Shown here: piece after piece, positions 60,721-62,716 of the stretch
Layout: each line of letters starts with the position of its first letter
Numbering within the stretch: the first letter of the stretch is position 1
Assembly (NCBI GenBank): GCA_951406725.2
Contig: OX597820.1
Span: forward strand, 59,582,001-59,646,000
Origin: Octopus vulgaris
Lineage: Eukaryota
Direction: 5' to 3'
DNA length: 64,000 nt
Translations under genes and position numbers: made by a program
The notes under the pieces: model-generated
What the model was told of the DNA's origin: nothing
Databases searched by the model: none
The model's input: the letters and a program-made list of their open reading frames with translations, nothing else

Positions 60721-62716
60721 CATCAGTCCCATGAAAAGGAGAGAGCAGATAAAGAAGCTTGGGTAATAGAAAATAGAAAATCAAACCCTAAAGCTTTCTT
60801 TAAGTTTGCCAAAGAGACAGCCACAGTGCACCAGAGAATAGGACCTCTCTTCCAAAAAGATGGCTCTCTCACAGGAAATCCCACGAGGATAAGTGAAATA
60901 CTGAACGAACAGTTCCAAAGTGTGTTCACTACACCTCTAGGACACAGGCAAGTAAACAACCCAGAAGAATTCTTTGCCACTTTACCAGCGGCCAAAGAGA
61001 CAAAAATTGAGTACATCAACATCGAAGAAGATGATATCACACTAGCCATTGATGAGATTGACACAAACTCAGCTGCTGGACCTGATGGATTCCCAGCGAT
61101 CCTTCTCAAATCGTGCAAACGAGCCCTTGCAAAACCACTACAGCTTCTTTTTCAGAGCTTTCTTGCAAGTGGTAAGCTCCCAGTCAAACTGAAAGAGGGG
61201 GTAATATGCCCTATCCATAAGGGAGGTAGCAGAGCAGATGCTAAAAATTATAGGCCTATCTCTCTGACCTCACACATCAGCAAAGTCATGGAACGAATAG
61301 TCCGTAAGAAACTAATCATGTTCCTTGAAGAAAATGACTTACTGTCTGACACCCAGCATGGATTTCGACCAGGTAGAGGCTGCCTAACACAGCTCCTGCA
61401 ACACTATGACTGGGTGTTGAAACAGCTACTAAATGGCTCAAATGTGGATGTAATATATCTTGACTTTGCAAAAGCCTTTGATAAAGTCGACCATGATATG
61501 ATCTGTCACAAACTGCGTGGTCTCGGCATAGGCGGGAAACTTGGAGAGTGGCTGCACAACTTCCTAAAAGACAGAAAACAGGCAGTTGTGAGCAATGGAG
61601 CCACCTCCAGGGAAACGCAAATAACAAGCGGTGTCCCACAGGGCACTGTCTTGGGGCCACTGATGTTCATAGTGGCCCTTTCAGACATGCCTTCAGTTGC
61701 TACGATGACCACCCTTGCTAGCTATGCAGATGACACAAAAGTCTCCCACGCAATACAAAACCCTGAAAATATTGCGCATCTGCAACATGAGCTGGACACA
61801 ATATACAGGTGGGCTGAGGACAACAACATGCAGTTTAATGCAGGTAAGTTCCAGGCCCTGCGCTACTGGCACACAAAGGTAAATGACGTGCATACTGGAT
61901 ACACTGGCCCAGGAAGAATTGCAATCCCTGAGTCAAAATCAGTGCGTGACCTGGGCATTGACATGAGCAATGATGCATCTTTCCAAATGCATATTGCTAA
62001 TCTGGTGATAAAATGCAGACAGCTAGCTGGATGGATTCTCCGAACTTTCAGAACAAGAGAGAAGGAGACACTGATGGTCCTATGGAAAACATTTGTCCTC
62101 AGCCGCTTGGACTACTGCTCCCAACTTTGGTCACCACACAATATAAAACAAACAGCAGAACTCGAAGCAACTCAGAGAAGCTACACAAAGAAAATCGTCT
62201 CAATGCGAAATGTCAGCTACTGGGAAAGACTGAAGGTATTAAACCTCTTCTCCCTGGAGCGGAGGCAGGAGAGATATGCAGTGATATACATCTGGAAAAT
62301 CCTGGAGGGTCTTGTCCCAAACTTTGGCATTCAAAGTTACTCCAACCGCAGAACGGGGGCCGCTGCGTGGTGCCAAGGATTCCAACATCACCATCAAAAT
62401 ACAGGTCCAGATACTGCAACAGCTTGGGTTTCAGAGGACCACAGCTCTTTAACATCCTCCCTAAATGCCTGAGAGACTTACATGGTGTGGATGTGGGTTT
62501 CTTTAAAACTAAACTGGATCTCTTCTTGTTGGGAGTCCCAGATGAACCTACCTCACGACAGGAGACACGGATGCGGGCAGCAGCATCGAACTCCCTTGTT
62601 GATCAAGTGCCACGTATCAGAGGTGGATTCACAAACTAGTGTAGCTCATTCAGCGGTGGTGCCCCAGCATGGCCGCGGCCTTCGGGCTAAAACATTTTTA
62701 AGGATTTAAGGATTTA
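60721..62716 (+). mobile_element. CR1-group LINE family B, 5'-truncated, young (RT frame open with one frameshift near 62355)
   Basis: [53 protein letters not shown]-terminus continues in another frame to TAG at 62639; tail (taaggatt)2. Confidence 0.95.

What the first reader, a model, noticed from the sequence alone, without database searches (positions are those of the whole stretch)
62650..62716. Shared, covarying 3'-terminal RNA stem-loop links two CR1-group LINE families and the dominant SINE
Seen: family B ends GGTGGTGC-cccag-CATGGCC-gc-[GGCC-TTCG-GGCT]-AAAACA. The SINE ends GG(T/C)GGTGC-tccag-CATGGCC-g-[CAGTC-AAAT-GACTG]-AAACA (39128 minus; 20504 and 16743 with single mismatches). Family A ends GGTGGTGC-tattaagttaga-CATG(G/T)CC-tg-[GACCA-ATCTT-TGGT(C/G)]-GAAACA (22770, 53707). 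Flanking motifs are conserved while the stem sequence differs but pairing is retained. Known: stringent-type LINE RTs recognise a 3' stem-loop shared with partner SINEs. Inference: this is the cis recognition signal, and a family-B-like LINE mobilises the octopus SINE.
Basis: partly seen in the sequence, partly recalled or inferred. Interest (0 to 1): 0.7.

Follow-up and report, generated by a model that had tools for sequence, protein, structure and literature searches.

The report
LINE tail hairpins capture small RNAs
In this octopus-like genome about ten families of jumping genes and one very common short repeat end in the same double-hairpin tail, and that tail alone, starting 3-4 letters before the first hairpin, has been inserted over a thousand times, sometimes with a U6 or unprocessed tRNA molecule attached in front, which likely shows how new short repeats are born.

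Summary
In detail: 122,085 genome-wide tail matches, 0 in the control. About ten CR1-group LINE families carry the tail, as do distant metagenome relatives. Family B is a poor SINE partner: weakest tail match (30/40), much younger, different terminal repeat, strict (TA)n targeting (40/40 vs SINE 4/24). F (36/40), K (35/40) and E (same terminal repeat) fit better; no LINE with the SINE's loop was found. New here: LINE homology often stops exactly 3-4 nt before SL1. Family D has 1,336 such tail-only matches against 10 at a control offset; 4 of 30 read carry full U6 or an unspliced pre-tRNA, and 35 pre-tRNA-Glu–tail chimeras span several families. Shared SINE-LINE tails and U6-LINE chimeras are known; a fixed junction was not found in 9 answered paper searches. 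Recognition and junction mechanism are inferred. Earlier scan notes on this genome describe a Tx1-tailed SINE, apparently a different one.

The parts
60720..62716 (+). 5'-truncated family-B CR1-group LINE copy between (TA)n tracts; ORF2 RT fragment, 1-nt frameshift near 62358 relative to copy L031
   Evidence: RVT_1 E 5.6e-31; 40/40 scored copies 100% identical over 357 nt
62651..62654 (+). 4 nt upstream of SL1: the fixed 5' boundary of tail-only insertions and of Pol III RNA chimeras elsewhere in the genome
62655..62674 (+). SL1: 3 bp + G·G mismatch + G·U + 3 bp, 4-nt loop; nearly invariant in sequence among octopus families
   Evidence: compensated versions in metagenome relatives
62676..62689 (+). 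SL2: 5-bp stem (4 bp in this young copy), family-specific 4-nt loop; covaries across families
   Evidence: 4 of 5 pairs with two-sided changes; tree
62690..62715 (+). AAAC motif followed by the family-B terminal microsatellite
22770..22830 (+). Family A tail (longer SL1 loop, different SL2, own terminal repeat)
53707..53775 (+). Family A tail, second copy
39128..39520 (-). Full-length SINE copy; tail at 39185-39146, AGTAAAAG-type terminal repeat; head with A/B-box-like motifs by eye (no tRNA call)
20504..20543 (+). SINE tail (internally deleted copy)
16743..16782 (+). SINE tail (a near-identical duplicate lies at 23253)

Best explanation
The feature is a roughly 45-nt double stem-loop tail shared by about ten CR1-group LINE families and an abundant SINE, which likely serves as the handle by which the LINE protein grips and starts copying an RNA; copies whose LINE sequence begins exactly 3-4 nt before the first hairpin make up a large share of insertions, most likely because the reverse transcriptase reaches a fixed stop or RNA end there and then either integrates the tail alone or jumps onto the U-rich 3' end of a nascent Pol III RNA. 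Shown: the tail, its covariation, its spread over families, the fixed boundary, the U6 and pre-tRNA chimeras. Inferred: protein binding, the stop/jump step, and that the SINE got its tail this way from a K- or F-like LINE and was then copied by one or more relatives (F-like at its main burst, perhaps E-like late), not by family B.
For: SL2 covariation score 0.246 vs 0.150 shuffled, 0/500; slid controls at most 0.087; on the ORF2 tree two SL2 pairs each need more than one double change (with tails; read by eye). Architecture kept in LINEs only 35-47% identical: strict descriptor hits 8 of 20 relatives (6 just before the terminal repeat, 2 probably chance) vs 36 of 600 shuffles. Fixed boundary: 1,336 family-D tails with non-D bases at -5/-6, 30 of 30 read have no D sequence further up vs 10 matches, 4 true truncations, at the -9/-10 control; 3 of 28 A/B copies stop at -4 and the next shortest has 176 nt; SINE tails 2 tail-only and 0 with 6-80 nt among 88. 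Chimeras: 3 full-length U6 and 1 intron-containing pre-tRNA among 30; 35 tRNA-Glu-tail joins, 25 of 25 read have gene-specific trailers without CCA, mostly 5'-truncated tRNA, 1-5 native upstream nt, tails of D, E, B, A-like, F, C and the SINE itself. Precedent: stem-loop required and loop-specific in ZfL2 (PMC4176376); template jumping needs non-templated addition in R2 RT (PMC8857657, abstract).
Against: No binding, RNA-end or retrotransposition data. No LINE with the SINE's SL2 loop was found (50 of 117 hits read in full, 100 classed by their first 80 nt), and in ZfL2 the loop sets specificity, so the true partner may be unseen. SL1 shows no two-sided change within the octopus set (0 of 7 pairs); its C/T variant may be CpG decay. 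The distant-relative descriptor was written after seeing those sequences. K (pairwise 0.20) is older than most SINE copies; E is younger. Age samples are small and pattern-selected (E n=4, K n=6). Target-site duplications were not clearly resolved; L345 could be a tail inserted behind a resident tRNA gene.
Confidence: 0.6

Rival explanations
1. The LINE RNA is cut at -4 by a host nuclease or by itself, and the released tail RNA is ligated to U6 or pre-tRNA (RtcB-type) before reverse transcription.
For: Full-length U6 chimeras look like the human U6/L1 ligation products (PMC6789731); a cut would explain a fixed 5' end.
Against: RtcB needs a 2',3'-cyclic phosphate (PMC6789731); pre-tRNA trailers and long U tracts (L354, L337) look like nascent ends (3'-OH by general knowledge, recalled); extra non-matching letters at some joints (L340); human junctions are spread along L1 with no motif; no shared sequence at the cut across families.
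Confidence: 0.2
2. One reading: the tail is the recognition signal and a family-B-like LINE mobilised the SINE.
For: B shares SL1 spacing and 30-32 of 40 tail letters; B is very young and so probably active.
Against: Other families match better; B is about 3-4 times younger than the SINE bulk; different terminal repeat; (TA)n flank 40/40 vs 4/24 and 5/20.
Confidence: 0.08
3. Tail-only copies come from separate short non-autonomous master elements or from later deletion between (TA)n tracts, with no special step in reverse transcription.
For: 14 of 30 tail-only D copies have (TA)n directly upstream, which could favour recombination.
Against: Tail-only copies mirror at least five D loop variants and seven families; the boundary is the same with or without (TA)n upstream; tRNA trailers differ from copy to copy, so the events are independent.
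Confidence: 0.07
4. The tail is merely inherited 3' sequence without a structural role.
For: Octopus B-N families are closely related (tree); single-copy folding z-scores are weak.
Against: Compensated pairs; the G·G mismatch stays while all stem pairs change in L172; sequence just upstream of -4 is unrelated between families.
Confidence: 0.05

Closest known systems
Stringent LINE-SINE pairs with a 3' stem-loop: eel UnaL2/UnaSINE, zebrafish ZfL2-1/ZfL2-2 (PMC4176376: abstract, sections 13 and 19 read)
   Same: Short 3' UTR stem-loop, microsatellite end, stem generic and loop family-specific, tail shared with a SINE.
   Different: Two tandem hairpins with a G·G mismatch; CR1-group rather than L2; ten families in one genome; no functional test; no LINE with the SINE's loop found.
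Bivalve BivaV-SINE2 / BivaCORE-SINE1 with CR1-14_CGi (PMC4824008: passages, supplement file 2 passages; PMC4758252: passages; PMC11481361: passages, 8 supplement files searched)
   Same: Mollusc SINE tails shared with CR1-group LINEs, with stem-loops and compensatory changes; poor age overlap with the named partner is also reported there.
   Different: Different tail sequence (the octopus motifs are absent from the searched supplements apart from one unrelated SINE head); cephalopods not treated.
U6-LINE chimeric retrocopies: human U6/L1 (PMC6789731: passages; 10.1101/2025.02.02.635956: abstract) and platypus/lizard U6-L2 (PMC4476161: passages)
   Same: Pol III RNA joined 5' of a LINE 3' end; in platypus the L2 part is short and U6 usually 5'-truncated; template switching proposed as a source of SINE tails.
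   Different: Human junctions lie throughout L1 with no motif; here the junction is fixed 3-4 nt before SL1, also yields abundant tail-only insertions, and captures unprocessed pre-tRNAs. Whether the platypus junctions are fixed was not stated in the passages read.
Octopus tRNA-derived SINEs OK/OR1/OR2 (Ohshima & Okada 1994; seen only as a citation; the name OK is recalled)
   Same: Abundant octopus SINE with a tRNA-like head.
   Different: Identity not checked: the paper and Repbase/Dfam were not available.

Membership tests
Stringent LINE-SINE pair | SINE 3' tail homologous to a LINE 3' end | tested here: met
   30-36 of 40 nt identical with six families, K 35 columns
Stringent LINE-SINE pair | Stem-loop kept by compensatory changes | tested here: met
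   SL2 4 of 5 pairs, 0/500 shuffles; SL1 only in distant relatives
Stringent LINE-SINE pair | Microsatellite, not poly(A), 3' end | tested here: met
   family-specific repeats; SINE repeat equals family E's in 19/19 E copies
Stringent LINE-SINE pair | Partner LINE shares the SINE's loop | tested here: inconclusive
   none among 50 of 117 hits read; search needed an intact PD.P motif
Stringent LINE-SINE pair | Partner active at the same time as the SINE | tested here: inconclusive
   B not met (0.037 vs 0.115); F overlaps (0.100); K older (0.203); E younger (0.010); small samples
Stringent LINE-SINE pair | ORF2 binds the stem-loop and needs it to retrotranspose | not testable with these tools
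   needs binding and retrotransposition assays
tRNA-derived SINE | tRNA-derived Pol III head | tested here: inconclusive
   A/B-box-like motifs by eye; no ARAGORN call in L012, L144; no Rfam tRNA hit
CR1-group LINE | AP endonuclease plus RT in ORF2 | tested here: met
   RVT_1 in family B, Exo_endo_phos in family A copy; full homologues carry both
CR1-group LINE | Placement in a named clade (CR1, CR1-Zenon, L2, Daphne) against reference elements | tested here: inconclusive
   no reference set; named hits are an Argonauta protein (61%) and bird proteins (34-37%)
U6/LINE chimeric retrocopies | Pol III RNA joined 5' of a LINE 3' end in one insertion | tested here: met
   TSDs not clearly resolved
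U6/LINE chimeric retrocopies | Junction at variable LINE positions (human L1) | tested here: not met
   1-5 native upstream nt in 25 of 25 tRNA chimeras, 4 in the U6 ones; both searches looked only near the tail
U6/LINE chimeric retrocopies | Formation by RtcB ligation | not testable with these tools
   needs RNA-end chemistry or knock-down

The most novel reading that the evidence does not exclude
This LINE clade has a built-in capture point: the double hairpin defines a fixed boundary at -4 at which reverse transcription ends or jumps, so the ~55-nt tail acts as a portable mobilisation cassette that is appended to nascent Pol III RNAs, making proto-SINEs continuously; the octopus SINE is one such product that succeeded.
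Probability: 0.45. Interest if true: 0.78.

Novelty: new variant of a known kind. Interest (0 to 1): 0.6.

Why it matters
How tRNA-headed SINEs acquire LINE tails has long been explained by template switching, with few intermediates in hand. Here hundreds of independent intermediates appear to exist with one defined junction, which makes the step directly testable. Several families are very young (B 40/40 scored copies identical; E 99%), although a published transcriptome and consensus survey of octopus found only RTE and Dong full-length LINEs (PMC9115989, passages). Ten families with the same scaffold but different loops and terminal repeats form a natural series for RNA-protein specificity, and the tail points to the enzyme family behind one of the SINE bursts that dominate octopus genomes (PMC9068888, PMC12988792, passages).

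Tried and rejected
Rfam has no family for the tail (only weak hits on flanking TA repeats). MAFFT could not align distant tails with octopus tails, so no formal pair count was made across them; a descriptor was used instead. Same tail as the bivalve CR1-Zenon partners: rejected. A second SINE family with the F tail (my first reading of L145/L133): rejected, these are independent pre-tRNA chimeras. RNA evidence: no RNA holder listed on record and only contigs; laying four runs gave loose ends at -3/-4 that genomic tail-only copies explain, so no evidence on RNA ends. One search's 'unselected' SINE set wrongly included best-hit copies; redone. One search stopped before the SINE row; one search stopped during the TSD part. 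Younger K-lineage copies: best non-self hit 86%. Sequence look-ups in earlier findings gave nothing. Paper searches for a prior description found none for this tail or a fixed junction; subscription papers, Repbase and Dfam were not covered, supplement file 1 of PMC4824008 was not searchable and bioRxiv supplements are closed.

Full report
Observation. A pattern covering all three matches 122,085 times in the 2.8-Gb genome G000 and 0 times reversed; 5,168 matches have non-SINE letters upstream, so roughly 117,000 are SINE-type. Family B encodes an RT and is very young: 40 of 40 scored hits among 2,034 candidates are identical over 357 nt.

Structure. The tail is two hairpins, not one. SL2 follows after one base, then AAAC and a family-specific microsatellite. 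On the 15 rows (hand-picked, one to two per family; one row is a tRNA chimera carrying the F tail), 97.8% of cells pair, 4 of 5 SL2 pairs change on both sides, covariation score 0.246 against 0.150 shuffled (0/500) and at most 0.087 slid. SL1 has no two-sided change in this set. The tool warns that relatedness inflates such scores; on the ORF2 tree (38 rows, K_L286 dropped for short length; B, C, D, E, F, G, H, N in a clade at 100/98, K sister at 86/65, A far outside) the U-A/C-G states of two SL2 pairs are interleaved, which by eye needs several independent double changes.

Spread. Pattern searches and reading of the loci gave LINE families A, B, C, D, E, F, G, H, K, N (plus a D-like I), each with ORF2 C-terminal similarity upstream of the tail. 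Among 24 distant relatives from metagenome contigs (35-47% identity), 20 had a readable 3' region; a strict two-hairpin descriptor with the G·G mismatch hit 8 of 20 (6 directly before the terminal repeat, 2 probably chance) against 36 of 600 shuffles. The descriptor was written after seeing these sequences. In L172 every SL1 pair differs but the G·G mismatch stays. The published bivalve CR1-related tails are a different sequence.

Which LINE is the partner. Tail identity to the SINE out of 40: F 36, K 35, E 34, old B 32, C 31, D 31, young B 30. The SINE's terminal repeat equals family E's (19 of 19 E copies; 16 of 24 and 43 of 70 SINE copies start with it). Mean pairwise divergence of 3' ends: E 0.010 (n=4), B 0.037 (13), A 0.054 (12), D 0.061 (26), F 0.100 (17), N 0.174 (7), K 0.203 (6), C 0.209 (10); SINE 0.115 (24 pattern-selected) and 0.163 (70 from flanks). 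(TA)n within 60 nt downstream: B 40/40, E 18/19, D 22/27, C 8/10, A 8/12, F 11/21, K 9/24, SINE 4/24, flank SINEs 26/69, youngest SINE hits 5/20, baseline 16.7%. So B fits worst. K shares SL1, linker, SL2 stem and the four upstream bases of some older SINE copies and is the likely tail donor lineage; F overlaps the main burst; E shares the terminus but targets (TA)n strictly. No LINE with the SINE's SL2 loop was seen (50 of 117 hits read). In ZfL2 the loop carries specificity (PMC4176376, sections 13, 19), so either recognition here is loop-tolerant or the partner is unseen.

Unexpected result: a fixed boundary. Of 28 A and B copies, 3 have exactly 4 nt of LINE sequence upstream of SL1 and the next shortest has 176. 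Family-D tails with non-D bases at -6/-5 number 1,336; 30 of 30 read have no D sequence further upstream. The matched control for a boundary at -9/-10 gives 10 matches, of which 4 are truncations. Against about 4,000 longer D copies (84 of 100 listed among 4,799) tail-only copies are roughly a quarter (patterns differ, so approximate). Upstream of the 30: three full-length U6 snRNAs and one intron-containing pre-tRNA with trailer, one poly(A)-ended sequence, and mostly (TA)n or AT-rich flank. A search for one tRNA-Glu 3' motif within 4-30 nt of SL1 gave 35 matches, control 0; all 25 read have a gene-specific trailer and no CCA, most are 5'-truncated (ARAGORN of 25), retain 1-5 native upstream bases (1:1, 2:5, 3:6, 4:12, 5:1), and end in tails and terminal repeats of D, E, B, an A relative, F, C or the SINE itself. 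Among 88 SINE-like tails not selected for this, 5 had 2-5 nt of upstream homology (2 true tail-only, 2 old variants, 1 LINE F) and none 6-80 nt.

Mechanism. Inferred: ORF2 binds the double hairpin and starts target-primed reverse transcription in the terminal microsatellite, as shown for L2 elements. At -3/-4 the RT either meets the end of a processed tail RNA or stops as it leaves the bound structure; the short cDNA integrates alone or jumps to the U-rich 3' end of a nascent Pol III RNA. R2 RT jumps by non-templated addition (PMC8857657, abstract). RtcB ligation (PMC6789731, passages) is the main rival but needs a cyclic phosphate and gave no fixed junction in L1. The boundary is set by distance from SL1, not by sequence, since the four bases differ between families. 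RNA data could not decide.

Known and new. Shared, covarying SINE-LINE tails are textbook and published for bivalves (PMC4824008, PMC4758252, PMC11481361). U6 chimeras with short L2 ends are published for platypus (PMC4476161). Not found in the searches made: this tail, the octopus SINE's partner, or a fixed capture point with abundant tail-only insertions. Repbase, Dfam and Ohshima & Okada 1994 could not be consulted, and may already hold the families. Earlier scan notes in this genome concern a Tx1-tailed SINE; a second abundant SINE with another tail is indeed present. One note (e1-9540526) may concern this tail, but its sequence is not shown.

Verdict. Observation confirmed; interpretation partly supported; partner B rejected.

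Noticed in passing
window 59165-60719 and 62715-62810; L031-L060: Young CR1-group LINEs insert into (TA)n microsatellites (B 40/40, E 18/19, D 22/27).
   Followed up: partly
L345 (G000:C1, about 10,209,800): Intron-containing pre-tRNA with trailer joined to a family-D tail: a possible fossil of an unspliced nuclear pre-tRNA.
   Followed up: partly
L352: A poly(A)-ended sequence joined to the D tail at -4; possibly an mRNA or other retroelement 3' end.
   Followed up: no
L127; L131, L132, L140, L143, L150: Internally deleted LINE and SINE copies that jump from upstream sequence straight to SL1.
   Followed up: no
L360:1330-1495: A second very abundant SINE with a different tail and a short shared body segment (77 vs 98 hits in 879 kb).
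   Followed up: partly
window 62676-62689: Young family B acquired a C(UUCG)G loop (extra-stable tetraloop, recalled) while losing the basal SL2 pair present in older B copies (L080, L081).
   Followed up: no
window 1-3413, 6337-16030, 16044-16412, 18794-20070: Long satellite arrays (5-, 15- and 34-nt units) with short telomere-like CCCTAA runs at 3466 and 20069.
   Followed up: no
window 45374-47161 (-) and 49598-54739 (-): Fragments of two other non-LTR elements (RTE-like by eye), one interrupted by family A.
   Followed up: no
window 41370-43128 and about 50945-52704: 1.76-kb duplication of a family-A segment at 98.5% identity.
   Followed up: no
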